From Patescibacteria group bacterium (lineage in GTDB: Bacteria > Patescibacteriota > Patescibacteriia > UBA9934), in assembly GCA_018896835.1 (NCBI GenBank), contig JAHILS010000035.1, positions 1 to 46,599 of the forward strand: DNA of 46,599 nt, in the 5' to 3' direction. Below, one piece after another: positions 1 to 19,900 of this stretch. The first letter of the stretch is position 1. Each line of letters begins with the position of its first letter. The notes beneath the pieces are model-generated. The model searched no databases and was not told where the DNA came from. It worked only from the letters and a program-made list of their open reading frames with translations. Made by a program: the position numbers and the translations under genes.

Positions 1-2105
1 CCACCCGACTCTGGGTCTTTGCCAAGGTTAACCAAAGGTTCTTGAGCAGCTTTTTTTTGTTGTTTGGTTGTTTCTAAAATCACCCTAGCGGTCGCCTCGT
101 CTACTTTTAGCACACTAACGTCTTCTGGAAATGAGGCATTAAGTTTTCCGGCTTTTAGATATGGGCCATAGGGACCAATTTGCGCCGTGATTACTTCACC
201 GGCCTGAGTTTTTCCAACTTCGCGTGGCAAGTCAAGAAGTGGCATAACTTCCTCAAGCGTGACAGTGTCCATGCTCATGCCTTTAAGTAGTGATGAGCTT
301 TTTGGTTTAGGAATAGTTTTATCTTCTTTATTATAAATTCCTAGTTGAACATATGGTCCAAAGCGACCCGATTTGATGAATACTGGCTTGCCAGACGCTG
401 GATCAATACCAAGTTCGCGTTCATGCAAAACGTCAGAGCGGGAAAGTCCACCAGTTTTTTCTTCTAAATTTTTATGAAAAGGTTTGTAAAATGCATCAAG
501 TGTTGGCACCCACTTTGCTTTTCCCTCAGCAATGTCGTCAAGATTTTTTTCCATGCTGGCAGTGAAAGCGTAGTCAACAATGTCAGGGAAATGTTCGACG
601 AGCAGGTCGGTGACAATGAGCGCCGTGTTTGTGGGAGCAAGTTTTTTGCGATCATCGCGCTCCACATAGCCACGATCAATAATTGTGCTTATTGTTGGCG
701 CATATGTTGAAGGTCGCCCAATCCCGTATTCTTCCATAATTTTAACAAGTGTTGCATCAGAATATCGGGCAGGAGGTTCTGTGAAATGTTGTTTTCCATC
801 AATTTGGTTGGCAACGATTTTGTCGCCCTTGGTAACTTCTGGCAAAACAGTTTCCTTGGCAGTGCGGTAGACCTTCATAAATCCATCAAAAACTATTACG
901 TTTCCAGTGGCTCGGAAGGTATAGTCCTTAGCAGTAAGGTCAATTCCAGTTTGGGCTATTTTTGCGTTTGGAAGCTGAGTTGCGATTGTTCGGCGCCAAA
1001 TAAGATCATAAAGTTTCCACATGCCATCGTCTTTAAGGCTTGATCGAATACTCTCAGGCGTAGCACCAGGATCAGTTGGACGAATAGCTTCGTGAGCTTC
1101 TTGTGCGCCCTTACTTTTTGTTTTATAGGCAACAGCACCTTTGGCATAAGTTGATCCAAAAGCAGACTGTATATATTGTTGCGCCTCTCCTAGAAATTTA
1201 TCAGCTAGGTTTAGAGAGTCGGTACGCATGTAAGTGATGCGTCCTGTTTCGTAAAGCTTCTGGGCCAGCACCATGGTTTGTTTGGCACCAAATCCAAGTT
1301 TCGTGTTGGCTTCTTGTTGAAGCGTGGAAGTGGTGAGCGGAACAGGTGGTTTTCTGGTAGCTTCCTTCTTTTCTATTGCCTCAACTACGAAGTTGGCTCC
1401 AACCAGATCTGTGGTAATTTTATCTGATTGTTCTTTTGTTTTGATATCAAGCTTATCGACTTTTTTGCCATTGATTTTGGAAAGTTTACCATCAAATTTT
1501 TCTGCGTCTTTTTCAAACTGGCCTTCAATGGTCCAATATTCTTCTTGCTTAAATGCGTTTCGTTCACGTTCACGCTCGACTATCAATCGCAAGGCAACAG
1601 ATTGTACACGTCCGGCGGAAAGCCCACGCTGAACTTTTTTCCACAAGAATGGTGAAAGCTCGTATCCCACAAGTCTGTCTAAGATTCGTCGAGTTTGTTG
1701 GGCGTCGACAAGATCTTCGTAAAGTGGACGTGGGTGTTTTAAGGCTTCCTCGATTGCATGCTTGGTGATTTCGTGAAAGGCAATCCGTTTAATATCTTTG
1801 TTATCAATATTTAGAACTTGAGCGATGTGCCAGGCAATAGCTTCTCCTTCTCGGTCTTCATCAGTTGCCAAGTAGATTTGTTCAACTTGTTTGGCAGCGG
1901 ACTTAAGTTCCAAAACACGTTTGCGTTTGTCAATTGGAATTTCGTAAGTTGGTTGGTAGTCATGTTCAACATCGACTCCAGTTTTCTTTTTTGGCAAATC
2001 TCGTATATGGCCAAAAGACGACAAAACCTCGTACTGCGCGCCGAGGAATTTTTTAATAGTTTTAGCTTTTGTAGGAGACTCAACAATCAGGAGTGTTTTT
2101 GCCAT
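1..2105 (-). CDS. topA: DNA topoisomerase I (type IA); C-terminal end runs off the window
   Basis: Not in the supplied ORF track because there is no in-window stop. The reverse complement from the ATG at 2105 reads open to position 1. It shows MAKTLLIVESPTKAKTIKKFLG (Toprim), ATDEDREGEAIAWH and the catalytic-Tyr motif GRITYMRTDS. The small track ORFs at 464-2111 are frame shadows of it. Confidence 0.93.
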   Translation of the reverse strand, partial: MAKTLLIVESPTKAKTIKKFLGAQYEVLSSFGHIRDLPKKKTGVDVEHDYQPTYEIPIDKRKRVLELKSAAKQVEQIYLATDEDREGEAIAWHIAQVLNIDNKDIKRIAFHEITKHAIEEALKHPRPLYEDLVDAQQTRRILDRLVGYELSPFLWKKVQRGLSAGRVQSVALRLIVERERERNAFKQEEYWTIEGQFEKDAEKFDGKLSKINGKKVDKLDIKTKEQSDKITTDLVGANFVVEAIEKKEATRKPPVPLTTSTLQQEANTKLGFGAKQTMVLAQKLYETGRITYMRTDSLNLADKFLGEAQQYIQSAFGSTYAKGAVAYKTKSKGAQEAHEAIRPTDPGATPESIRSSLKDDGMWKLYDLIWRRTIATQLPNAKIAQTGIDLTAKDYTFRATGNVIVFDGFMKVYRTAKETVLPEVTKGDKIVANQIDGKQHFTEPPARYSDATLVKIMEEYGIGRPSTYAPTISTIIDRGYVERDDRKKLAPTNTALIVTDLLVEHFPDIVDYAFTASMEKNLDDIAEGKAKWVPTLDAFYKPFHKNLEEKTGGLSRSDVLHERELGIDPASGKPVFIKSGRFGPYVQLGIYNKEDKTIPKPKSSSLLKGMSMDTVTLEEVMPLLDLPREVGKTQAGEVITAQIGPYGPYLKAGKLNASFPEDVSVLKVDEATARVILETTKQQKKAAQEPLVNLGKDPESG

Positions 2106-2173
2106 AATTAATGGTTTTCGCTAGTTTCGATGAGCAAATCATGCAGGAACACAAGCCATGTGTCAAGCTTTAC

Positions 2174-3205
2174 TTAATTTTTATGATTAGGATTGTAAGC
2201 AATAGAGTAGTCCCATCCAAATGCAGATGGGCCAAATAATTCGTACCCTTTTTCACTCTCCCAACAAGGGATTGATTTGCAGGCAAGAATCGCAACTTTT
2301 TGCGAAAGATAATTATTAAGATCTGAATTGTGAATTGGAAATCCATTTAAATCACAAAGTATTATTAGGTGTGGACAGGTGATGATTGGTCTGTTGTCCC
2401 TTAATAAAATTAAATGTTCATTTTGAATAAGATCTTCGTAGACGGCGCTTGATCCTTGAAGTACGACTTTTGATATTAAGAAATCGTCTTTTGCTTCCTG
2501 TTTAATGTCAGTAATTTTTGCAATATCAATCAAGTCAATGTTATGATTTTTTAATCCTTTTATCCCAAGTATGTTAATTGAATTTCCAATTTCTAGCGAT
2601 CTTTTTAGATTTCCGCAAGATAAGATTGGAATATCATGCGTTTCCATGAAATGATCAATCACAACAACAAGACTGTTTGTTTCTTTAGCAATAGATCGCA
2701 CGAAGTATTCAAGAGATTTTGGGTCCATGTCTTCTTTTATGAATATATTTCCTTTTGTGTCGAGGATAATCGCTGGCGTTGTTGATCGTCCATGTAAAGG
2801 GAATAGATCTTGCATTATCTCAGGCACTGCTCGACCACCTGTCCCATCAGCATCTAATAACTTGAGTCCAGTCTGATGTGCTATGCTCATTGCTAAATGT
2901 TCAACGCCAAGCTCGCCTACAATAATTCCAGCAAGTTTATTTTTTGCATATTCACGAGCAATGTCGATGCCTTTTGTGAGAAGGTCTGAAAATTGCGCAT
3001 TACGAAGCGACGCTGGACCAACAGCATAAACAGTACAAAGCATTTGACCAGGATGAAAATCCTTTGCTTCATAAATTGGAAAGTTTTCTTTTGGTAGTTC
3101 GATCAAAGAATTACATTTTTCTGCGTAAGGACAGCCTCCACCTGTTGCCAGAAGAGCAGCGCCTAAAAATATATCTTTTAATTGTTGCGTTGAGCAGTAA
3201 TACAT
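2174..3205 (-). CDS. DUF917-family protein (hydantoinase-associated / S-methyl-thiohydantoin desulfurase-like family)
   Basis: 343-aa ORF. N-terminal GAALLATGGGCPY and central GELGVEHLAMSIAHQTGLKLLDADGTGGRAVPE resemble the conserved DUF917 blocks (GTGGGG ... DaD.mGRA.PE). Confidence 0.6.
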   Translation of the reverse strand: MYYCSTQQLKDIFLGAALLATGGGCPYAEKCNSLIELPKENFPIYEAKDFHPGQMLCTVYAVGPASLRNAQFSDLLTKGIDIAREYAKNKLAGIIVGELGVEHLAMSIAHQTGLKLLDADGTGGRAVPEIMQDLFPLHGRSTTPAIILDTKGNIFIKEDMDPKSLEYFVRSIAKETNSLVVVIDHFMETHDIPILSCGNLKRSLEIGNSINILGIKGLKNHNIDLIDIAKITDIKQEAKDDFLISKVVLQGSSAVYEDLIQNEHLILLRDNRPIITCPHLIILCDLNGFPIHNSDLNNYLSQKVAILACKSIPCWESEKGYELFGPSAFGWDYSIAYNPNHKN

Positions 3206-3223
3206 AAAATTTTAACATTGGTT

Positions 3224-3249
3224 GGCTCGGGGATTTTAGTCCCCGAGCC
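3224..3249 (-). terminator. 10-bp GC-rich hairpin just downstream of the 427-aa gene
   Basis: GGCTCGGGGA-ttttag-TCCCCGAGCC lies 8 nt after the stop at 3257. It has no clean U-run, so it may act as an attenuator or stabiliser rather than a full terminator. Confidence 0.45.
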
Positions 3250-3256
3250 AGATGAG

Positions 3257-4540
3257 TTAGAACACCTGTCTAATCATGCGCGTAAGATATGCATACAGAA
3301 TATCATGTTGATTTTTCCATGTGCACATGAGCTCATGAGAGGCTCGCACTTTGAGTGTTGCTTCTTTCACTGCTTGGTGACGCTGTTTTACACTGATCCC
3401 ATAGGTTGGGATATGCGCACAAGCACGAGTTGATTCGTTTTCGATGTGTTGCCATAGTGCGTGAATTGCATAAAGCGCTTCTCGGCATTCTGGGAACATA
3501 TATAGACAGTTCAGACCGTCTGCGTAGAGATCGTCACTGACAAGTGCTGGCACTCGCGTGATGTCCATTGTTTTCAGGCGACTTGCCAAGAATTCCTCGC
3601 GTTTTCCTGTACAACAGGTTTGGCTGGATGTTGTATTTGCAAACCCCAGTCGCCCGTCTGCTTGCACATATGGGAAAAATGCGATTCCTCCGGCAACTCC
3701 TGAGTTGTCATTTTTGCCATAACCATTTTTCAACAAGTATTCCTTAAACATCATGAGTAGAATACTTATATTTGATCCTGAGTCATTTAGCGGATACATG
3801 GCTTCAGTGAAGTGGTGATATGGCTCTACAACCAGGTACTCGCTTTCCCTTGGAATAATCCCATGTTCACGCAGTGTATCTGCCCACGATCCAGTAAAAG
3901 ACCAGATGACCTGCGAACGGGTAAAACCGAGTGGTGCGCGCCTGAAGGATTTTAGGCCATTGAAGAATTCATCAGCTTTTTTCTGCATTGGCAAAGCAGA
4001 GAAGTAGCATGGTTTTATTTCTCCATGTACTCCATGTTGATCTGCAAATCGACTGAACATATGCAGATGTCGCTGCCCCTGTTCCTGGAAAGCACTTAGC
4101 AAATGCTCACGATGATCAGCAAACAAGCTGTCCTCGAGAATATCAAGGTGCATATCTGCGCCAGCGATTGGGAGCATGGGGTCAGTGATCTGAGTAAGAT
4201 TTGGGAGAGATTTGATTAGCTTGCTAATCTCATCCTCCTTCTGGCCAGTGTATTTTCCATCTGCAGTTGTGATCAGGCAGGACCCACCAGCGACTACAAT
4301 AGGCTTTGAGCTCCGAATAATGCTTATGATATCAGCTGAGAAGCGAATTGCCTTGAAGGCTGATGGCCCCATCCATTGATAGAGTTCGTCTGCTTCTTGC
4401 TCGGTAAGATCCTTCCAGCTAATACCATGGCCCATGAATCCCATCCACTGTTCAAGATCGAGCAGTTCAGCATAGCGGGGAATAAGAGTCGGGATGAGTA
4501 GCTCATCCTGGAAACGAATTACGCTCTGTGCTGTTGCCAT
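3257..4540 (-). CDS. hypothetical protein, 427 aa, family not recognised
   Basis: The track ORF extends to 4666. The ATG at 4540 is preceded by AGGAGAAGTC (a strong SD) and gives MATAQSVIRFQDELL.... GC is visibly higher than in flanking genes. Confidence 0.6.
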   Translation of the reverse strand: MATAQSVIRFQDELLIPTLIPRYAELLDLEQWMGFMGHGISWKDLTEQEADELYQWMGPSAFKAIRFSADIISIIRSSKPIVVAGGSCLITTADGKYTGQKEDEISKLIKSLPNLTQITDPMLPIAGADMHLDILEDSLFADHREHLLSAFQEQGQRHLHMFSRFADQHGVHGEIKPCYFSALPMQKKADEFFNGLKSFRRAPLGFTRSQVIWSFTGSWADTLREHGIIPRESEYLVVEPYHHFTEAMYPLNDSGSNISILLMMFKEYLLKNGYGKNDNSGVAGGIAFFPYVQADGRLGFANTTSSQTCCTGKREEFLASRLKTMDITRVPALVSDDLYADGLNCLYMFPECREALYAIHALWQHIENESTRACAHIPTYGISVKQRHQAVKEATLKVRASHELMCTWKNQHDILYAYLTRMIRQVF

Positions 4541-4897
4541 GACTTCTCCTTTTGAAGTATTTGACAGGTGTGAAGGAACGAAAGGAACCCCGCAAAATAG
4601 CGAGGTTCCTTTGAAGGCCTGTGAACTGTAATACGCAAAACAGCCCACAGAGAGCCTTCGAAGCAACCCCTCTGTTTGAGTAGTATTTGCGTATTACATT
4701 TAAAAAGAACATGAGCGACTCTCAGAGCCGCTCATTTTGATTCTTGTTTTTATTTTACTTAACAATCAAAATAACCGACTCTGAGAAACATAAAGCTCCA
4801 GAATCGGCGCATATTATTTTTGGTTGTGTTAATCATTGCTAACATATCTTGTGAATACAGTATCATCTAGGTTTATAATTTTGTCAAATTTATTTAT

Positions 4898-6226
4898 TTA
4901 GTGTTGTGGATATGATAAATTTGATTTTATTATTTTTTCTTCATCAATCCACTGTGTGCGCATTTCGCCACTTAAAAATAGTGAGCCGGTGATGATGATA
5001 GCTTCATCATTTTTGATAGTTTTTTTGGCATGCGCGAGTGCGTCTGCGTGGTCTAAGAATGCACCAGATTGTTTTGCTTTGGGAATAAGTTTTAGTAGCT
5101 GCGCCGGGTTGGAAGCTTTTCTTTGGTCCATTTCAAATCGAGTAGTCGTAATTTTGGTAACGTGAGGGATGAGTAGATCAAGCATTGTTGAGGCATCTTT
5201 ATTAGCTGCACAGCCAAAAATCAAATGCACTGGTTTGTTTAAAGTTTTTAGGCGTTTAACAGTTGTTGCGATTTTAGCAGGGGAGTGAGCGCCGTCCAAA
5301 ATAATTATTGGCGATTTTTGCATTGTTTCGAATCGACATGGCAGTCGCTTAAGGTTTTTTAAAACTGATTCGATCGCACTGTCTGATATTTGAATTTCTT
5401 TGGCAACCGCGATAGCTAGAGAAATATTGTGTTGTTGATGTTCGCCGTGCTCGACATTGATTAAGTTTTCTATAGGAGGATTAATAAAGAAAAGTGCGGA
5501 ATTATTTTTTATTGCTTCATCCATGAAAACTTTTCTAATTTTTGGTCTTGTCTCCCCGCAAAAAACAATACCATCTTTTTTTATAATCCCAGCCTTCTCA
5601 TAGGCAATCTTTGCCAGGGTGTCACCTAAAAGTTCGGTGTGATCTTTGTCGATATTGGTGATTATCGCAACCTCTGGAGTAGGAATAACGTTGGTTGCGT
5701 CCCATCTTCCGCCACATCCAGCTTCTAGTACACACCATTTTGCACCAGCGTTTTGAAAAGCAAAAAGTGCCAGGCATGTAGAAAGTTCAAAAAATGAAAG
5801 TGGGGTGTTATTACCTTGTAGAAATTTTTCGTAAACTTTAGTTAGTTTTTCGATATTATCAATCAAGTCTTTTGCTGGAAGAAGATTATTTCCAAATTGG
5901 AAGCGTTCCAAAAAAGTTGTTGTGTGTGGTGAAAGATAAGTGCCAACTTTTTTCTTATCAGCTGATAGCATTTGATGCATTGCGTAAGCTACTGAGCCTT
6001 TTCCGCTTGTGCCAGCGATATGAATTATTTTTAGTTTTTTGTGAGGGGAGCCAAGAGCGGTTAAAAAATCTTCTGTTCGTTTGAGTGAGTTTCTAAGCTC
6101 GGCTTTTGAGTCTGAATAATTTTTATCACAAAGATTTGCGAGCGATAAAAAAGATTTGTAAGTTTGTTTGTATTGTTCAAATAAGTTAAGCATATGTGTA
6201 ATATTGTCCGCCAGTATCTTGTACAA
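4898..6226 (-). CDS. folC: folylpolyglutamate synthase / dihydrofolate synthase (Mur-ligase family)
   Basis: P-loop HIAGTSGKGS, YLSPH and DATN motifs. The real start may be the ATG at 6193 (MLNLFEQ), because a 6226 start overlaps dprA by 41 nt. Confidence 0.85.
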   Translation of the reverse strand: MYKILADNITHMLNLFEQYKQTYKSFLSLANLCDKNYSDSKAELRNSLKRTEDFLTALGSPHKKLKIIHIAGTSGKGSVAYAMHQMLSADKKKVGTYLSPHTTTFLERFQFGNNLLPAKDLIDNIEKLTKVYEKFLQGNNTPLSFFELSTCLALFAFQNAGAKWCVLEAGCGGRWDATNVIPTPEVAIITNIDKDHTELLGDTLAKIAYEKAGIIKKDGIVFCGETRPKIRKVFMDEAIKNNSALFFINPPIENLINVEHGEHQQHNISLAIAVAKEIQISDSAIESVLKNLKRLPCRFETMQKSPIIILDGAHSPAKIATTVKRLKTLNKPVHLIFGCAANKDASTMLDLLIPHVTKITTTRFEMDQRKASNPAQLLKLIPKAKQSGAFLDHADALAHAKKTIKNDEAIIITGSLFLSGEMRTQWIDEEKIIKSNLSYPQH

Positions 6227-7313
6227 ATCCTTTAAGCTCGAGTACGGAAAGAATTGCAGAAATTTGGTGCGCTGGCAAATTAGTTTGGCGAGTTATTTCA
6301 TCTATGTGGATTGGTGCTTGAGAGAGAAGATTAAGTATTGCAGTTTCTTCTGGTGTTGATCCGATCGGCTTTTGTTTTATTTGGGTGCGAGCGGGCGTGC
6401 AAAATTCCATTTCAAATACGTCTGAAATATCCTGCGCACAGGTTACCATATGTGCACCATTTTTAAGAAGTAGGTTTGTTCCTTTGGAGGTTGGTGAGGT
6501 AATCGAACCAGGCACGGCGAATACTTCACGATTTTGTTCTAAGGCTGACTTGGCAGTAATTAAAGATCCAGATTTTTCCACAGCCTCAATTACCAGTGTG
6601 CCATTACTAATGCCAGAGATAATTCGGTTGCGGATAGGGAAGTTTTGTTTGGCGCCATGCATTAAAAGAGGGAACTCGCTAATAATTGTGCCATTATTTT
6701 CTATTATTAGTTTTTGCACAGCTTGTTCTCGGGTTGTTGGTGGATTTAAAATCCCAAATCCCAATACTGCTATGGTAATTTCGCCAACATCGATTGTTGA
6801 CCTGTGCACAATTTCATCAATGCCAAACGCTAGCCCGCTCACTGTCACAATTCCTTGTTTAGCAATTTCTTGCGTTAGATTTTTAGCAACCTGCATGCCA
6901 TAGTCGCTGGCTTTGCGTGAGCCAACGATTGAGAGTGAATTGTGGTCATTAAGATTTGGTAACGTACCTTTTACAAAAAGAAGATAAGGCGGGTCGTAGA
7001 TTTGTTTAAGCAGTGAAGGATAAGAATCATCAGTTAGTGTCAGAATTGATATTTGATTATCTAACACTTGTTGCATTAGCGCCTCGGGATTGATGTTTTT
7101 ACGGAATTCCAAGAATTCATTAATTACATTGTCATGAATTCCGGCTTGCTTTAGGTTAGACGCTGAGGTTTCAAATGCGCTTTGCGCTGAACTAAAATAA
7201 TCCATCAACCGTGCCAAAGATTTAGATCCGAATTTGGGAAATTCATTAAGAGCGATGAGGTAGTTTAGATCTGAAATCATAAGAGTATTATAGCAGACAT
7301 CCTTAATTTCCAT
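6186..7313 (-). CDS. dprA: DNA processing protein DprA/Smf
   Basis: IVGSRKASDYG ... VSGLAFGIDEIVH ... FPIRNRIISG ... KSGSLITAKSALEQNREVFAVPG, with a C-terminal winged-helix-like tail. Confidence 0.9.
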   Translation of the reverse strand: MEIKDVCYNTLMISDLNYLIALNEFPKFGSKSLARLMDYFSSAQSAFETSASNLKQAGIHDNVINEFLEFRKNINPEALMQQVLDNQISILTLTDDSYPSLLKQIYDPPYLLFVKGTLPNLNDHNSLSIVGSRKASDYGMQVAKNLTQEIAKQGIVTVSGLAFGIDEIVHRSTIDVGEITIAVLGFGILNPPTTREQAVQKLIIENNGTIISEFPLLMHGAKQNFPIRNRIISGISNGTLVIEAVEKSGSLITAKSALEQNREVFAVPGSITSPTSKGTNLLLKNGAHMVTCAQDISDVFEMEFCTPARTQIKQKPIGSTPEETAILNLLSQAPIHIDEITRQTNLPAHQISAILSVLELKGFVQDTGGQYYTYA

Positions 7314-7377
7314 CCCGACGCTATAAAGGATCTTCTTCGGTTCCCATCCCGACGTTAGGAGGGATCTTCTTGATGGT
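7310..7377. repeat. two tandem 34-nt units (about 70% identical) overlapping the dprA start codon
   Basis: CCATCCCGACGCTATAAAGGATCTTCTTCGGTTC / CCATCCCGACGTTAGGAGGGATCTTCTTGATGGT. Related copies occur at 9254-9285 (inverted) and 42093-42125. Confidence 0.6.
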
Positions 7378-7412
7378 TAAGAATTTATGGAAACATATAA
7401 ATTAAAATAGGC

Positions 7413-7456
7413 CTTAAAAATAAAAACAATGAACCCCCACACGAACGCAGGGGTTC
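7413..7456 (-). terminator. intrinsic terminator of the high-GC orphan gene
   Basis: Minus strand reads GAACCCC-tgcgttcgtgtg-GGGGTTC followed by ATTGTTTTTATTTTT. Confidence 0.7.
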
Positions 7457-7486
7457 AGGCGGGGGTGAGGGCTGGAGGGACTAGCC

Positions 7487-8368
7487 TCAGCGGTCGAAGC
7501 GGTCGTGGCTGCGACTGGTCTCGCGACACGCGCGGCGCGAGCTCTTGATGATGGCCTGCATGCGGGCGTCGAGCTCGGGGGTGGAGACGGCGCAGTGCTC
7601 CTGGAAGCCGGTGGCCGCGCGCATCACGAACGACCTCCAGTTCTCATCACTGACCTGCGGCTCGCGCTGGGGATCGTCCGGGTAGATGATCGACCAGCAT
7701 TGGTTGATCCACATCCGCACGGCATCGCCCCTGTCGCGGTTGCCGTCGAGGACCTCGATCTTGATCGTCGCGTAGCGGACCATCTCGACCAACTGGTTGG
7801 CCTCGCTGTGCGCGTCCACGAGGGCACGGCGGTACCGGGCGAACACCACGCCGTAGGCACGGCGGCGGATGTGGCCCATGAGCCGCTGCTCCTGAGATCC
7901 CTGCCGTTCGGTGTCAGCCGGGACGATCAGGGAGACGTTGGGGTTCTCGATCGGGGCACAGTCCCGCGCCTCTTCCCACAGGATGTAGCAGTCCCGCGGT
8001 TCGAGGCCGATCTTCCAGAGCTCCTCGTGCTTGCGCATGTCACCCTCACCGGTGCGGAAGCTCCGCTTGCCCGACATGAGCACGAGGGTGTTGAAGGCGC
8101 GGTGGGGGAGCCGGGGCCGGTCCTGGTCCCGCAGATCGCGGAAGACCGGCCTGTCGTGCCCGTCGCGGTGCATGAGGTGGCGGTCGGTGAGCAGTGCGGT
8201 GGCGGTTCCGTGCCAGCCACCGACATTTTCGACGAGGAATCGGCCCTCGCCGAAGCCGTAGGCGATCGGGCCCAGGGCCACGATGCCTTCCTTGAAGCTG
8301 TCGCGGGCTTCCTGGCGGTCGAAGCCGACCAGGGGGACGATGCAGGCCTCAGCGGGCTTGTCTAACAT
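7487..8368 (-). CDS. orphan high-GC protein, 293 aa, family not recognised
   Basis: Nearly all third codon positions are G/C on the minus strand. GAGGAG lies 8 nt upstream of the ATG at 8368 (the track starts at GTG 8377). A promoter lies upstream and a terminator downstream. The plus-strand ORF 7505-8365 is low-complexity Ala/Gly/Arg antisense shadow. Confidence 0.75.
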   Translation of the reverse strand: MLDKPAEACIVPLVGFDRQEARDSFKEGIVALGPIAYGFGEGRFLVENVGGWHGTATALLTDRHLMHRDGHDRPVFRDLRDQDRPRLPHRAFNTLVLMSGKRSFRTGEGDMRKHEELWKIGLEPRDCYILWEEARDCAPIENPNVSLIVPADTERQGSQEQRLMGHIRRRAYGVVFARYRRALVDAHSEANQLVEMVRYATIKIEVLDGNRDRGDAVRMWINQCWSIIYPDDPQREPQVSDENWRSFVMRAATGFQEHCAVSTPELDARMQAIIKSSRRACRETSRSHDRFDR

Positions 8369-8438
8369 GGCGGTCACTCCTCATTCCCTTTAGTTTTCAT
8401 CAGCTCAGGCAGGGAACACGCCTTTGAGCAGACGGACA

Positions 8439-8467
8439 AAAATATCACATTTTGGCCAAAATGTCAA
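8439..8467 (-). promoter_or_regulatory. sigma70-like promoter with an overlapping 18-bp perfect palindrome
   Basis: Minus strand reads TTGACA (8467-8462), a 17-nt spacer, then TATTTT (8444-8439). An alternative is TGTGATATT as an extended -10. The palindrome ACATTTTGGCCAAAATGT at 8447-8464 fills the spacer. Confidence 0.55.
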
Positions 8468-8475
8468 TCCCCAAA

Positions 8476-8508
8476 TGCAAAAAAATAGCCAATTTTTGGC
8501 TATTTTTT
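8476..8508. terminator. bidirectional intrinsic terminator after the lipoprotein gene
   Basis: A-run, then ATAGCCAA-ttt-TTGGCTAT, then a T-run. Confidence 0.7.
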
Positions 8509-8527
8509 GAGGTTTATCTGTAGTTGT

Positions 8528-16907: not shown

Positions 16908-19900
16908 ATGAACAATCTTTTGAAATACTCGCTATTAACCCTCGCTGTGGGAGTTTTTGGGTTTACACTTTTTGTTGGGAGTGTAAACGCCGAAGCTGTA
17001 AGTGTTTCGTGTTCTGGCACATCAGGAGCACCAACGGCAGTTACAGAAGCTGATCTTGCTGGAGATGATGTAACCTTCACTGACGGAGGTGATGGTTGGT
17101 GTGTATTGGACAATTCAATTTCAGCCGCCTCGGTTGTTATAAATACTGGGGTGACGATTACCCATACAATGGCTGATGTTGATGGAGTGACTATTACTAC
17201 GACAGGAAATTTTGAGATTCAGGCGGGGGCTTATATAAATGCGGATTCAAAGGGTTGTCAGGATTCATTGTCTGATAGTCATGGTTGGGGACCCGACGCT
17301 TCCAATATCTGTACCTATCTGGATAGTGGAGGACAAGGGGCAGGGAGAGGGCATTCCGGTATGGCTGTTGGTGCTACAGGGGCCGGCTACGGTGGAGGTG
17401 GAGCGGTTGGTACTACATCTCTTAGTGCCGGATCGGCATACGGTAATAATATTGCCCCTGACAAATTTGGGGCTAGCGGAGGTACTGCTTGGGATGTTCG
17501 GGGTGGTACGGGTGGCGGATTGATTCGTTTGGATGTTTCTGGTATTTTTACAAATAATGGCAGTGTCTCTGTAAATGGAGGAAATGGACTTGTAGGATCT
17601 TTCAACGCTGCTTCAGGTGGTGGCTCGGGGGGATCTATTTATATAACGACCAGTAGCATTTTAGGTTCCGGTTCCTTAAGTGCCAATGGAGGCAATGGTT
17701 ATGATGGCAGCTCCACTCATAACGGAGGAGGTGGCGGAGGAGGACGAATAGCAATTCTTTATACGAGTTCAACCTTTTCTTTCTCATCATCCAGTGTACG
17801 CGCAACAGGTGGAGATACCCCCGATTCTTCTGTGGATGGCAGTAATGGAACTGCGTATGTGGAAGACACAGACGATACAGCAGTAAGTATTTATAGTGGT
17901 TTTGATTATTCAACGGATTATGTAAAAAACAGCTGGACAGTTGATTCAGGTGCGTCAGGACAGCGTTGTGAAGTTTCGTCTGACACTTCACCTTCTGTTA
18001 CGGCTACAAACATTACTCTTGGAGGAACACTTGCGTGTGCCGATGCCACACTTGTTTCCTTAAATTTTTCTGCTTCAACAAGTTTTTCGGTTTTGGATAG
18101 TACATCTTTTTCTGTCACAACAACTGGTTCAACGGTAGATTTCAATATCCCTGCAGGGAATGATCAGATATGGACAAATGTTGTATTCACTGGCGCCGCT
18201 CAAGGATATTTCACAATCAATGATGCTGTAAGTATTGATTTAAATAACACAACAATTACAGCCAATGCCCAATGGACGAGTTTAACCGGATTGGATTTGG
18301 ATGGTACTTCTACGATTAATGCCAACTCAAAGGGTTGTCAGGCACTTAATGACGCTTTTGATGCTGACGGTTATGGGCCAAATGCGTCAAATGTTTGCGG
18401 ATATCAAACAGTTGGTTCTGGTTGGGGAGATGGAGCTGCCGATAATTTTGGTGTTCAAGGTGGTGGACATGGCGGGTCTGGTGGTGTTGGGAGTACCGCA
18501 GGATTTAATACAGGTGGCGCAACCTATGGAACTTCTACCGCACCAGTACTTTTTGGATCTTCCGGTGGTTCAGCATCAGCTAATTCTTTCGGCGGAGCAG
18601 GAGGCGGGTATATACGCTTAATTGTGAACGGAGGTTTTGTACTAGGCGGAAGTGTTTCCGCAAATGGAGGAACTCCAACATCAACAGAAGATTTTCGAGC
18701 AGGTGGTGGAGGGTCAGGCGGCTCGGTTTATATAACTATCAACGGAGCGTTAAGCGGTGCAGGTTCCGTTTCTTCAGTCGGTGGCAGTGGAGTTGACAAA
18801 TCCAGTGCAGATGGAGGTGGTGGTGGAGGTGGTAGAGTAGCAATTTATTATGGATCGGATCCAAATTCCTTGATTGCAGGATTATCAGCTGGTGTAACTA
18901 CTGCTGGTGGATCAGGCCCCGGCACTGCCGTAGACGGAACAGCCGGCTCTCTTTACACACTTCAATCCGTCTACCTTTCATCAATAGTTATTACTGACAC
19001 ATCCGGTTATACCAACGATTCCACTCCAGTAATTACAATCACACAGAGCGGTGCGACTCCAACTCATGTTGCATTCTCCTGCGATAACTCAAACTGGAGT
19101 TCATGGCTGACCTATCCTGACGACGAAGTCGTCAATGATGGCGATGGCCCGGCTTTTGACATCACTGCTGACGCAACTGGGTGCTCTGCCACAAATGAAT
19201 TAAAAACCATATACGCCAAAATCAAAGATGGTTCTTCAGAGTCTTCGGTAGTATCAGATACAACCACTTATGACACCGCGTCCCCAGGGGTAATGAACGT
19301 TAGTGCCACCAACCCAAACGGCACTTATACCACAGACGATGTTCTAACCATCACAGTTCAATTTGACGAATCAACCATGGTGGTGACAGGCACTCCGCAG
19401 ATTGAACTTGATATGAACGGAACAGACAGGCAGGCAAACTATGTTTCCACAGCTGCGGACACGCTTTCTTTTACATACACCATTGTCAACGGAGACAATA
19501 AGACAGACCTAGACTACACCGGAACAGATGCTTTGTCCCTCAGTGGAGGCACGATTTCGGATTTGGCTGGGAATACTGCAAATCTTACGCTTCCGTCTCC
19601 GGGAGCCGGAGGATCACTTGCGAGCAATACGAACATTAACGTTTCCACAAACCAAGCCCCAACCGTGGCCTCTATAACTGCTGTCCAACAGTCCAACGGC
19701 TCTGTCCTTATTACCTTTATCATGGACGACGCTGACGACGATGACACTCTCCAAGCCCTTGTTCAATACAATGTTGGCGGAGGTCTTACCAAGGCCACAC
19801 TCAGCGAAGTTGATGTTGATACTTTTACTGACAATGGTGGAGATCCTCAGGTAGAAAACGATGATGCTTACCAGGTTGGTAATGCTTCTGGATACATCTT

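What the first reader, a model, noticed from the sequence alone, without database searches (positions are those of the whole stretch)
7413..8508. Self-contained high-GC single-gene cassette encoding an unrecognised 293-aa protein
Between dprA and the lipoprotein gene the sequence jumps from about 40% to roughly 65-70% GC (by eye) for about 1 kb.

- The minus-strand ORF 7487-8368 has G/C at almost every third codon position (ATG TTA GAC AAG CCC GCT GAG GCC TGC ATC GTC CCC CTG ...). No neighbouring gene looks like this.
- It is a complete expression unit. It has a TTGACA-17-TATTTT promoter and a perfect 18-bp palindrome (ACATTTTGGCCAAAATGT) filling the spacer like an operator. GAGGAG lies 8 nt before the ATG, and a hairpin plus T-run terminator follows the stop.
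- I cannot place the protein in any family. It is Arg/Asp-rich. An R-x5-H string (RALVDAH) in the helical C-terminal half is only weakly HEPN-like.

A recently acquired, individually regulated orphan gene in a streamlined genome is a reasonable candidate for a defence, anti-defence or host-interaction function.
Basis: partly seen in the sequence, partly recalled or inferred. Interest (0 to 1): 0.7.

Follow-up and report, generated by a model that had tools for sequence, protein, structure and literature searches.

The report
GC-rich gene cassette with pseudoknot leader
A real 1-kb GC-rich single-gene unit in an AT-rich ultra-small (Uhrbacteria/CPR) bacterium encodes a member of a tiny, unnamed protein family whose predicted fold matches nothing in PDB or BFVD, and every family member examined is preceded by the same, apparently undescribed pseudoknotted RNA leader.

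Summary
Window 7420-8435 is 66-70% GC against about 40% in the flanks. ORF 7487-8368(-) has GC3 0.90, which is z=11 against 25 other ORFs. The promoter, 18-bp palindrome, GAGGAG and terminator are all present.

- **Not a chimera.** Three assemblies carry the cassette.
- **Not an orphan.** About 25 relatives exist, mostly in Uhrbacteria/Patescibacteria and a few in larger, GC-richer genomes.
- **Not demonstrably recent.** A 41%-identical homologue sits in the same slot upstream of dprA in a distant relative, with similar GC3 (0.88).
- **Not HEPN.** The R-x5-H string is not conserved. The confident AlphaFold model (pLDDT 87) is a large beta-sheet plus two C-terminal helices, with no Foldseek match in PDB or BFVD.

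New findings:

- All 14 family members with upstream DNA share a roughly 60-nt leader. A hairpin's pyrimidine loop pairs with a purine tract next to the ribosome-binding site, forming an H-type pseudoknot. Covariation is strong and there is no Rfam match.
- The dprA-upstream slot holds different GC-rich single-gene cassettes in related genomes. They share a 3' terminator element and similar promoters.
- The family gene is GC-richer than its flanks in all 16 contexts.

Protein function is unknown. Translational control through the leader is my inference.

The parts
8439..8467 (-). Sigma-70-type promoter TTGACA-17-TATTTT with TG extended -10. Its spacer resembles those of other GC-rich cassettes in related CPR genomes.
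   Evidence: 10 of 12 matches, TG present. (only 2 such sites in the window, both in front of GC-rich islands). Similar spacers in L022 and in L004 ORF2.
8447..8464 (.). Perfect 18-bp palindrome ACATTTTGGCCAAAATGT, overlapping the -35 and the spacer. Candidate operator (inferred only).
   Evidence: unique; 0.02 expected by chance. It is partly kept in L022 (ACATTTTGACTAAAATAT) and L004 ORF2 (ACAATTTGGCTAATTTAT).
8369..8432 (-). 5' leader with an H-type pseudoknot. P1 arms are 8429-8420 and 8410-8403. The loop is 8419-8411. P2 pairs 8417-8411 (GUUCCCU) with 8389-8383 (AGGGAAU). The Shine-Dalgarno GAGGAG is at 8382-8377.
   Evidence: Found in 14 of 14 family members with upstream DNA. The covariance-model hit is window 8366-8429, 40.9 bits. 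The minimum-free-energy fold leaves the loop free. No Rfam match.
7487..8368 (-). Coding sequence, 293 aa (NCBI hypothetical protein KJ673_01890). Short form of a small unnamed family. Predicted as a large antiparallel beta-sheet (aa 8-229) plus two long C-terminal helices (242-258 and 264-292).
7420..7486 (-). GC-rich 3' element: a C-rich tract (CCCTCACCCCCGCC) followed by the intrinsic terminator hairpin 7457-7430 and a T-run. It is homologous to the 3' ends of unrelated cassette ORFs in the same slot in L004 (two copies) and L005.
   Evidence: terminator. (alignment A11, 34 invariant columns)..
8480..8508 (-). Terminator hairpin of the upstream lipoprotein gene. It marks the upstream edge of the cassette slot. 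It is conserved in L004 and L005 and duplicated after L004 ORF1.
   Evidence: I2: 13-nt arms, 100% complementary..

Best explanation
This is a compact accessory-gene module of CPR bacteria (Candidatus Uhrbacteria), not a one-off recent import.

Anatomy (shown): a near-consensus sigma-70 promoter, then a roughly 62-nt leader, then a 293-aa cytoplasmic protein, then an intrinsic terminator embedded in a C-rich 3' element.

The leader (shown by covariation) folds into an H-type pseudoknot. The 9-nt pyrimidine loop of a 5'-terminal hairpin pairs with a purine tract that ends immediately upstream of the Shine-Dalgarno sequence. The leader travels with the protein family across CPR and non-CPR genomes.

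Mechanism (inferred): the pseudoknot sets translation initiation and/or mRNA stability. The likeliest effector is a trans-acting factor, either the encoded protein itself (autogenous control) or a small ligand.

Locus (shown): the module sits in a variable slot between the lipoprotein or pth gene and dprA. Related genomes carry other GC-rich single-gene cassettes there, with similar promoters and a shared 3' element.

Exchange (inferred): cassettes are swapped there by recombination, plausibly after natural transformation.

Composition: the family gene is GC-richer than its flanks in all 16 contexts examined. This holds for syntenic homologues at 41% identity whose four-fold sites are near saturation. 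I therefore infer that the high GC is sustained, by selection, biased conversion or repeated re-supply from a GC-rich pool, and is not merely left over from a recent transfer.

The biochemical function of the protein is unknown.
For: **Composition.**

**Independent assemblies.**

**Family.** One search gives P0002 at E=2e-68, P0003 at 4e-20, and others between 1e-7 and 1e-4. AlphaFold with the 16-sequence alignment gives pLDDT 86.8 and pTM 0.86, against 35 for the single sequence. This supports a real, co-evolving protein family.

**Same slot in a distant genome.**. A second shared slot, upstream of WecG-Ndt-gltX-M23, links L012 and L022.

**Gene GC minus flank GC.** The difference is +0.02 to +0.27 in 16 of 16 contexts.

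**Leader.**
- 14 of 14 members have it.
- In alignment A8, 87.8% of cells pair against 75.5% in shuffles (0 of 500 reach it). The covariation score is 0.496 against 0.264 (0 of 500). Slid controls give 39-51%.
- In alignment A10, 89.5% pair, and 10 of 14 pairs show changes on both sides.
- The covariance model also found an extra copy in front of the neighbouring gene in L024.

**Slot.** L004 and L005 hold unrelated ORFs of 52-61% GC there, and L006 a roughly 52%-GC stretch without a coding signature. They share the 3' element and similar promoters.

**Saturation.**
- Between the window and L015, four-fold sites agree at 35-36% in housekeeping genes. The island-2 orthologue keeps GC3 0.72 (ORF 15238-15783) and 0.57 (L015 orthologue), against 0.29-0.33 in neighbours.
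- Between the window cassette and L018, 55% of four-fold sites are the same, against 41% expected if independent (n=40).
Against: - No transcript, structure-probing or protein data exist. Regulation by the leader rests on its position and covariation only.
- P2 is 6-7 bp and may fold constitutively, in which case it is a stability or enhancer element rather than a switch.
- The extra leader copy in L024 precedes an unrelated protein. This weakens strict autoregulation.
- No recombinase, att-like core or flanking direct repeats were found at the window cassette. The exchange mechanism is conjecture.
- "Sustained GC" cannot be separated from repeated independent acquisitions into the same slot with the data in hand. 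The four-fold-site sample is small (n=40).
- The taxonomy of the non-CPR contigs could not be established.
Confidence: 0.6

Rival explanations
1. One reading: a recent, single horizontal acquisition from a high-GC bacterium or phage that has not yet ameliorated. Its likely role is defence, anti-defence or host interaction.
For: - GC3 is 0.90 and R/(R+K) is 0.84, as in Actinobacteria-like genomes.
- Distribution among Uhrbacteria is patchy: L014-L017 lack it, and L004-L006 carry something else in the slot.
- Variable slots between core genes often hold defence genes (general knowledge).
- HGT into Patescibacteria is documented (PMC12455944).
Against: - A homologue occupies the same slot in a genome with 49-70% housekeeping identity, with the same leader and similar GC3.
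- The closest relatives are other CPR cassettes, not GC-rich genomes.
- There are no hits in PADLOC, PHROGs, or the phage and plasmid collections.
- The promoter and 3' element are shared with other cassettes of the same slot.
Confidence: 0.2
2. The leader is a small-molecule riboswitch (pseudoknot aptamer of the preQ1-I or SAM-II size class). The protein acts on or responds to that ligand.
For: - The pseudoknot is compact (about 60 nt), with invariant nucleotides beyond those needed for pairing (GG/CC closing pairs, the UU of L1, and CAA before the tract) and an A-rich L3.
- It abuts the Shine-Dalgarno sequence.
- It occurs before two different adjacent genes in L024, as expected for a regulon-type element.
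Against: - No Rfam family matches, even at E of 10 or less.
- P2 is long (6-7 bp) and probably stable without a ligand.
- The Shine-Dalgarno sequence itself is not inside the pseudoknot.
- No metabolic or transport gene association hints at a ligand.
Confidence: 0.2
3. The dprA-upstream slot is an integron-like cassette array. The shared 3' element is a recombination site (attC-like) used by a site-specific recombinase.
For: - Different single ORFs in one slot are each followed by the same roughly 60-nt element containing an imperfect hairpin.
- L004 has two in tandem.
- The junction terminator is duplicated in L004.
Against: - No tyrosine recombinase or IntI is called in the L001 and L002 gene lists that cover window 1-18368. 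An IS256-type transposase lies in L002 at 11232-12122, just past the window's start, beyond the window's contig end.
- The window ORFs beyond 18368 were not Pfam-screened.
- The cassettes carry their own strong promoters.
- The element ends in a T-run and scans as an ordinary intrinsic terminator.
- By eye, the hairpin's 3' arm (GTTCATT in the window, GTTCTGC in L004) does not fit the GTTRRRY core as I recall it.
- The element is absent from family members elsewhere, such as L018 and L008.
Confidence: 0.1
4. Assembly chimera or contamination: a fragment from a high-GC organism spliced into a CPR contig.
For: The composition step is sharp.
Against: - Three assemblies from different accessions carry the identical junctions.
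- AT-rich promoter and terminator signals are integrated at both edges.
- Homologous cassettes lie at the same slot in L018 and L019.
- The slot-specific 3' element is shared with L004 and L005.
Confidence: 0.01

Closest known systems
Pseudoknot translational operators in bacterial and phage mRNAs (E. coli rpsO/S15 leader; phage T4 gene 32 leader)
   Same: An H-type pseudoknot in the 5' leader lies next to the ribosome-binding site and is inherited together with the gene it precedes. In the known cases the encoded protein binds the pseudoknot to repress its own translation (my own knowledge; the rpsO pseudoknot is discussed in PMC7038950).
   Different: There is no sequence or Rfam similarity. 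The protein here is not a ribosomal or ssDNA-binding protein, and RNA binding is untested. One copy of the leader precedes an unrelated gene.
Small pseudoknot riboswitches (preQ1-I, preQ1-II, SAM-II, fluoride)
   Same: Size, H-type topology, an A-rich L3 before the 3' strand of P2, and closeness to the Shine-Dalgarno sequence (review PMC11625349).
   Different: No covariance-model match. P2 is longer and is a polypyrimidine-polypurine helix. The Shine-Dalgarno sequence lies outside the pseudoknot. No ligand-related gene association is seen.
Individually transferred genes and small genomic islands in Patescibacteria (PMC12455944)
   Same: A compositionally atypical accessory gene sits between core genes of a streamlined CPR genome, with patchy distribution.
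   Different: GC-richness persists in syntenic homologues across deep divergence. The cassette has a dedicated consensus promoter, a conserved RNA leader and a slot-specific 3' element.
Integron gene cassettes
   Same: A fixed genomic slot holds interchangeable single-ORF units, each ending in a conserved hairpin-containing element.
   Different: No integrase is called in the part of the contig whose gene calls I have, and no attC core. The cassettes have their own promoters, and the element behaves as an intrinsic terminator.
HEPN-domain RNases
   Same: An R-x5-H string occurs in one sequence.
   Different: The motif is not conserved. The region runs from a beta-strand into a loop, not a helix. 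The fold is mostly beta.

Membership tests
HEPN | Conserved R-x4-6-H catalytic motif | tested here: not met
   In the 16-sequence alignment the columns of RALVDAH (aa 181-187) keep R in 4 of 16 members and H in 3 of 16.
HEPN | All-alpha four-helix-type domain carrying the motif | tested here: not met
   In the AlphaFold model (pLDDT 86.8), aa 170-183 form a beta-strand followed by a loop. Only aa 242-292 are helical. No HEPN structure appears among the Foldseek PDB hits.
Known anti-phage defence proteins (PADLOC-DB 2.0) | Profile match to a defence-system component | tested here: not met
   0 families at E of 1 or less.
Any Pfam, NCBIfam or PHROGs family | Profile match above the curated cut-off | tested here: not met
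   The only hit is PF22186 at E=0.031 and 14.8 bits, below the 24.5-bit cut-off. NCBIfam and PHROGs give none. No family is shared by the 14 members.
Known protein folds (PDB, BFVD) | Foldseek match with E of 1e-3 or less | tested here: not met
   The best PDB hit has E=0.079 and TMq 0.16. The best BFVD hit has E=0.0056 and TMq 0.12. AlphaFold DB could not be searched.
H-type pseudoknot cis-regulatory leader (generic kind) | Two crossing helices supported by covariation, located in the 5' UTR next to the ribosome-binding site | tested here: met
   89.5% of cells pair against 76.6% in shuffles (0 of 500). 10 of 14 pairs change on both sides. Slid controls give 39-51%. The position is 2-6 nt upstream of the Shine-Dalgarno sequence in nearly all copies (0 nt in the window).
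H-type pseudoknot cis-regulatory leader (generic kind) | Demonstrated effect on translation or mRNA stability | not testable with these tools
   Needs reporter assays or structure probing.
Described Rfam RNA families (for example preQ1-I, SAM-II, ribosomal-protein leaders) | Covariance-model match at or near the gathering score | tested here: not met
   At the gathering threshold the window gives only a tRNA. An E of 10 or less scan of 8340-8480 gives only noise below 17 bits. Five other loci show nothing at their leaders.
Integron gene cassette | IntI integrase and attI near the array | tested here: not met
   No recombinase is called in the L001 and L002 gene lists that cover window 1-18368, apart from an IS256-type transposase in L002 beyond the window's contig end. 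ORFs beyond 18368 were not Pfam-screened.
Integron gene cassette | attC site with inverse core and GTTRRRY core; promoterless ORFs | tested here: not met
   The shared 3' element ends in GTGGGGGTTC plus a T-run and scans as an intrinsic terminator. The mismatch to the GTTRRRY core was judged by eye from recalled consensus. The cassettes have their own TTGACA-17-TATNNT promoters.
Horizontally acquired genomic islet | Atypical composition and patchy phyletic distribution | tested here: met
   GC3 z=11.2. Absent from L014-L017 and replaced by other genes in L004-L006.
Horizontally acquired genomic islet | Identifiable donor lineage or recent transfer (near-identical copy elsewhere) | tested here: not met
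   The best non-self homologue is 41% identical and lies in another CPR genome. Phage and plasmid collections are empty.

The most novel reading that the evidence does not exclude
The leader is a new class of pseudoknot riboregulator, either an autogenous operator bound by the protein or a riboswitch, coupled to a protein family with a previously unseen fold. In addition, CPR bacteria keep a set of "GC-locked" accessory cassettes whose high GC3 is actively maintained in AT-rich genomes. These cassettes have dedicated consensus promoters with operator-like spacers and a shared 3' element. Possible reasons for the maintained GC3 include mRNA stability, escape from AU-directed RNases, or expression throttling.
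Probability: 0.3. Interest if true: 0.8.

Novelty: new variant of a known kind. Interest (0 to 1): 0.62.

Why it matters
- CPR bacteria are uncultured and most of their accessory genes are opaque.
- This locus offers a defined, testable RNA-protein pair: a covariation-supported pseudoknot leader that is absent from Rfam, plus a confidently modelled protein with no structural neighbour in PDB or BFVD.
- It also poses a concrete evolutionary puzzle. A gene family stays at 55-70% GC whatever the GC of its host genome (39-66%), including in syntenic copies separated by near-saturated synonymous divergence.
- If the GC is actively maintained, that contradicts the usual reading of compositional islands as recent transfers. 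It would then affect how HGT is called in streamlined genomes.
- The variable slot next to dprA, with interchangeable promoter-bearing cassettes, may show how naturally competent CPR cells shuffle accessory genes.

Tried and rejected
- **Single-sequence AlphaFold** was uninformative (pLDDT 35). It succeeded only with the 16-sequence alignment.
- **Word-indexed protein search** found only the query itself. The exhaustive search was needed.
- **Metagenome scan with the short-form alignment** found nothing.
- **Phage and plasmid tblastn** gave no match.
- **Viral-contig scan with the leader 15-mer** gave at least 120 matches, consistent with chance. The covariance model scored only two of them, at about 23 bits, and these lack P1, a Shine-Dalgarno sequence and an ATG.
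- **Foldseek top hits** are levivirus coat proteins and Bet v1/PYL folds, all with TMq below 0.2. I treat them as noise, not as evidence of RNA binding.
- **PF22186 (HI1480)** at E=0.031 was rejected as below cut-off.
- **Organism names for the non-CPR contigs** could not be recovered from cluster look-ups.
- **The L006 slot sequence** is not a tmRNA and matches no Rfam family.
- **The 217-aa protein behind the extra leader copy** is unrelated to the family (hhalign probability 0.3).
- **The motif GATCCCTCCTAACGTCGGGATGG** upstream of dprA is not a dispersed repeat.
Full report
**1.

- The window is a complete 46,599-bp contig of a Patescibacteria genome bin. The protein is NCBI hypothetical protein KJ673_01890.
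- Close relatives of its dprA gene are labelled Candidatus Uhrbacteria.
- GC content rises from 0.36-0.43 to 0.66-0.70 between about 7425 and 8435.
- The minus-strand ORF 7487-8368 (293 aa) has GC1/2/3 = 0.67/0.45/0.90. This periodicity marks a genuine coding region shaped by GC pressure. The five neighbouring genes have GC3 0.31-0.40.
- Against 25 other ORFs of the contig (mean GC3 0.357, sd 0.049) the cassette is 11.2 sd out.
- The amino-acid composition is GC-type too: 38 Arg and 7 Lys, so R/(R+K) is 0.84, against 0-0.48 in the neighbours.
  - promoter TTGACA-17-TATTTT with an upstream TG;
  - the perfect 18-bp palindrome at 8447-8464;
  - GAGGAG 8 nt before the ATG;
  - a 12-pair hairpin plus T-run after the stop codon.
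- In 46.6 kb there are only two perfect TTGACA-N16-18-TATNNT sites, against 0.45 expected. The other one drives the window's second GC-rich island.

**2. Not an artefact**

- The identical arrangement occurs in GCA_022012805.1. That copy has 10 mismatches in 18,368 bp, none in the cassette.
- It also occurs in GCA_018895575.1. There the only differences near the cassette are a 4-nt indel in the terminator tail and one SNP in the 3' UTR.

**3. Not an orphan, and not HEPN**

- Pfam, NCBIfam, PADLOC, PHROGs and PDB sequences give nothing significant.
- The word-indexed search found only the query itself.
- The exhaustive HMMER search found P0002 (41% identity, E=2e-68), P0003 (27%, E=4e-20) and a dozen weaker full-length relatives. 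One further hit, P0004 (1392 aa), matched only a short stretch (aa 205-265 of the query) and I left it out of the family as probably spurious. More relatives came from the profile search and cluster look-ups.
- The family has two forms:
  - a short form of 293-309 aa (window, P0002, P0003, P0017);
  - a long form of 350-436 aa, with an extra C-terminal domain ending in LWNYTGD.
- Shared motifs include VPxxGF, AYNxxLLxxGxRQF, RDC(F/Y)xVW, ILDRDxxKDD and DxxWxxLxxxAxxGFxxxC.
- AlphaFold with the 16-sequence alignment gave pLDDT 86.8 and pTM 0.86, against 35 for the single sequence. The model is a large antiparallel beta-sheet (aa 8-229) followed by two long helices.
- Foldseek found no match with E of 1e-3 or less in PDB or BFVD, and every TMq was below 0.2.
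It keeps R in 4 of 16 members and H in 3 of 16. HEPN is rejected.

**4. Not demonstrably recent**

- P0002 lies in L018 and L019 in the order hisS-lepB-LytR-der-pth-225aa-78aa-[P0002]-dprA-folC-topA. This is the same slot as in the window. That genome has 51% GC, and its housekeeping proteins are 49-70% identical to the window's.
- P0002 is 65.5% GC with GC3 0.88. Its neighbours have GC3 0.48-0.62.
- Named family members include a Candidatus Uhrbacteria protein (HYV70_00220) and a Patescibacteria protein (WC702_00720).
- Two long-form copies (L012 and L022) share another slot, upstream of WecG-Ndt-gltX-M23.
- Other members lie in a 3.7-Mb genome (L024), a 320-kb contig (L007), and contigs whose flanks are 58-66% GC and where the next gene encodes a PP2C phosphatase (L010, L029).
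- In all 16 contexts the gene is GC-richer than its flanks, by +0.02 to +0.27. The gene's own GC stays at 0.55-0.70 while flank GC ranges from 0.39 to 0.66.
- At four-fold sites within identical residues, the window and L018 cassettes agree at 55%, against 41% expected for independent sequences (n=40). This is close to saturation.

**5. A conserved pseudoknot leader (new)**

- All 14 family members for which upstream DNA could be read share a leader of about 60 nt.
- Its parts run in this order:
  - a hairpin P1 closed by GGY/RCC;
  - a 9-nt pyrimidine loop (UUUCUCUCC-like);
  - a variable linker ending in an A-rich CAA-type segment;
  - a purine tract (AAGGAGAGA-like) complementary to the loop;
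  - 2-6 nt (none in the window), then the Shine-Dalgarno GGAG, then 6-9 nt, then the ATG.
- Loop and tract co-vary:

| Source | Loop | Tract |
|---|---|---|
| window | TTCCCT | AGGGAA |
| L018, L026 | TTCTCT | AGAGAA |
| L008 | GTCTTCC | GGAAGAC |
| L020, L011, L024 | TCTTTCC | GGAAAGA |
| L022 (L007, L010 and L029 pair with the 6-nt core CTCTCC/GGAGAG) | TCTCTCC | GGAGAGA |
| L009 | TTCCCC | GGGGAA |

- P1 also changes in a compensatory way. It is GGC/GCC in the window and L028, and GGU/ACC elsewhere.
- On the MAFFT alignment, 87.8% of cells pair against 75.5% in shuffles (0 of 500 reach it). The covariation score is 0.496 against 0.264 (0 of 500). Sliding the 3' partners drops pairing to 39-51%.
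- On the model-based alignment of 15 copies, 89.5% of cells pair, and 10 of 14 pairs show changes on both sides.
- The two helices cross, so the fold is an H-type pseudoknot.
- In the window, P1 is 8429-8420 with 8410-8403. P2 is 8417-8411 with 8389-8383. The Shine-Dalgarno sequence is 8382-8377.
- With the -10 hexamer ending at 8439, I predict that the hairpin sits at the very 5' end of the transcript (inference).
- The minimum-free-energy fold keeps the loop unpaired.
- Rfam 15 has no matching family.
- The covariance model found one further copy, in front of the gene next to the family member in L024 (39 bits). That gene encodes an unrelated helical repeat protein.
- The model found no other copy in the window, and none that is credible in viral contigs.

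**6. The slot**

- Related Uhrbacteria carry other elevated-GC sequences between the lipoprotein or pth gene and dprA:
  - L004 has ORFs of 198 aa (52% GC) and 328 aa (61% GC, GC3 0.77);
  - L005 has a 152-aa ORF (61% GC, GC3 0.80);
  - L006 has a roughly 52%-GC stretch without a coding signature.
- L014-L017 have dprA directly next to pth.
- None of these ORFs has a Pfam match.
- The window cassette, both L004 cassettes and the L005 cassette end in the same element: CTCACCCCCRCC..GRACCCC..GTGGGGGTTC plus a T-run, with 34 invariant columns.
- Their promoters are alike. The window has TTGACAttttggccaaaatgtgaTATTTT, and L004 ORF2 has TTGACAatttggctaatttatgcTATATT.
- In L004 the lipoprotein terminator is duplicated behind the first cassette.
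- The slot therefore behaves like a site of cassette exchange. No recombinase or attC-like core was found, so the mechanism is unknown. Homologous replacement after natural transformation is a guess.

**7. Interpretation**

- Shown:
  - the anatomy of the module;
  - the family and its predicted fold;
  - the leader and its covariation;
  - the slot architecture;
  - the systematic GC excess.
- Inferred:
  - the pseudoknot controls translation or mRNA stability, and I favour a trans-acting protein, possibly the product itself, over a small ligand or a purely constitutive role;
  - cassettes are exchanged by recombination;
  - the high GC is sustained, not a fresh relic.
- The window's second island supports the last inference.
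  - Its orthologue sits in the same hisS-rpsU slot in a 38%-GC relative.
  - There it keeps GC3 0.57, against 0.29 for hisS.
  - In the window the island-2 ORF has GC3 0.72.
  - Four-fold sites between the two genomes are saturated at 35-36% identity.
- Repeated import into the same slots from a GC-rich pool remains a live alternative.

**8. Verdict**

- This is a real and unusual locus.
- The most valuable results are the undescribed pseudoknot leader tied to an unnamed protein family without a structural match in PDB or BFVD, and the persistent GC-richness of these CPR cassettes.

Noticed in passing
window 14889-15850: A second GC-rich island (60-63% GC) lies between hisS and rpsU, with the same architecture. 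It has a 38-nt perfect palindrome (14889-14926), the promoter TTGACA-17-TATAGT (14945-14973), a purine-rich ribosome-binding site, an ORF starting at 15030, and its own terminator near 15795-15845. The reading frame breaks at a run of 8 G (15206-15213). Full-length homologues are 247-251 aa. By eye the protein has a Nudix-box-like GGYx..ERELREE string, but there is no Pfam hit.
   Followed up: partly
L014-L017 6001-6744 (island-2 orthologue P0019): The island-2 gene sits in the same hisS-rpsU slot of a 38%-GC relative. It is 70% identical there and keeps 56% GC (GC3 0.57, against 0.29 in hisS), although four-fold sites between the two genomes are saturated. Its promoter carries the palindrome ACGCCAAATATgacaATATTTGGCGT.
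   Followed up: partly
window 7307-7371: Two tandem 31-nt repeats (84% identical; TTYCCATCCCGACG..GGATCTTCTT) lie directly upstream of dprA, each with a small hairpin (ATCCC..GGGAT). One copy is conserved upstream of dprA in L003. They are not dispersed elsewhere in the window.
   Followed up: partly
L024 8253-8321: An extra copy of the pseudoknot leader (39 bits) precedes a 217-aa helical protein with C-terminal SEHRVLSDPRSVPTG repeats. This gene lies immediately downstream of the family member P0008 in a 3.7-Mb genome.
   Followed up: partly
L006 5330-5960: In this Uhrbacteria relative the pth-dprA gap holds a stretch of roughly 52% GC (about 600 nt) behind a TTGACA-17 promoter, with no coding periodicity. 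It is not a tmRNA (ARAGORN) and matches no Rfam family. It could be an unknown RNA or a decayed cassette.
   Followed up: partly
L010 1692-4058 and L029 3720-9197: In the two GC-rich non-CPR contexts the long-form family gene is followed by a PP2C-type phosphatase. L029 also has a sigma-70 factor upstream and a Ser/Thr kinase downstream. L010 also has a PRPP-synthetase-like gene. The two contigs may simply be related organisms.
   Followed up: no
L003 1-195: The closest other species (dprA 83% identical) has its contig end 195 nt upstream of dprA, just where the cassette would be. A run of 9 C lies nearby. The assembly break may reflect a variable or repeated cassette.
   Followed up: no
L002 11232-12122: An IS256-family (Transposase_mut) gene lies just beyond the position where the window contig starts. 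This probably explains the contig end.
   Followed up: no
L004 record title: Contig CAYVLY010000001.1 (709 kb) is labelled "uncultured Gammaproteobacteria". It is syntenic with the Uhrbacteria loci (der-pth-lipoprotein-dprA-folC) and its dprA is 60% identical to the window's. The label is probably a mis-assignment.
   Followed up: no
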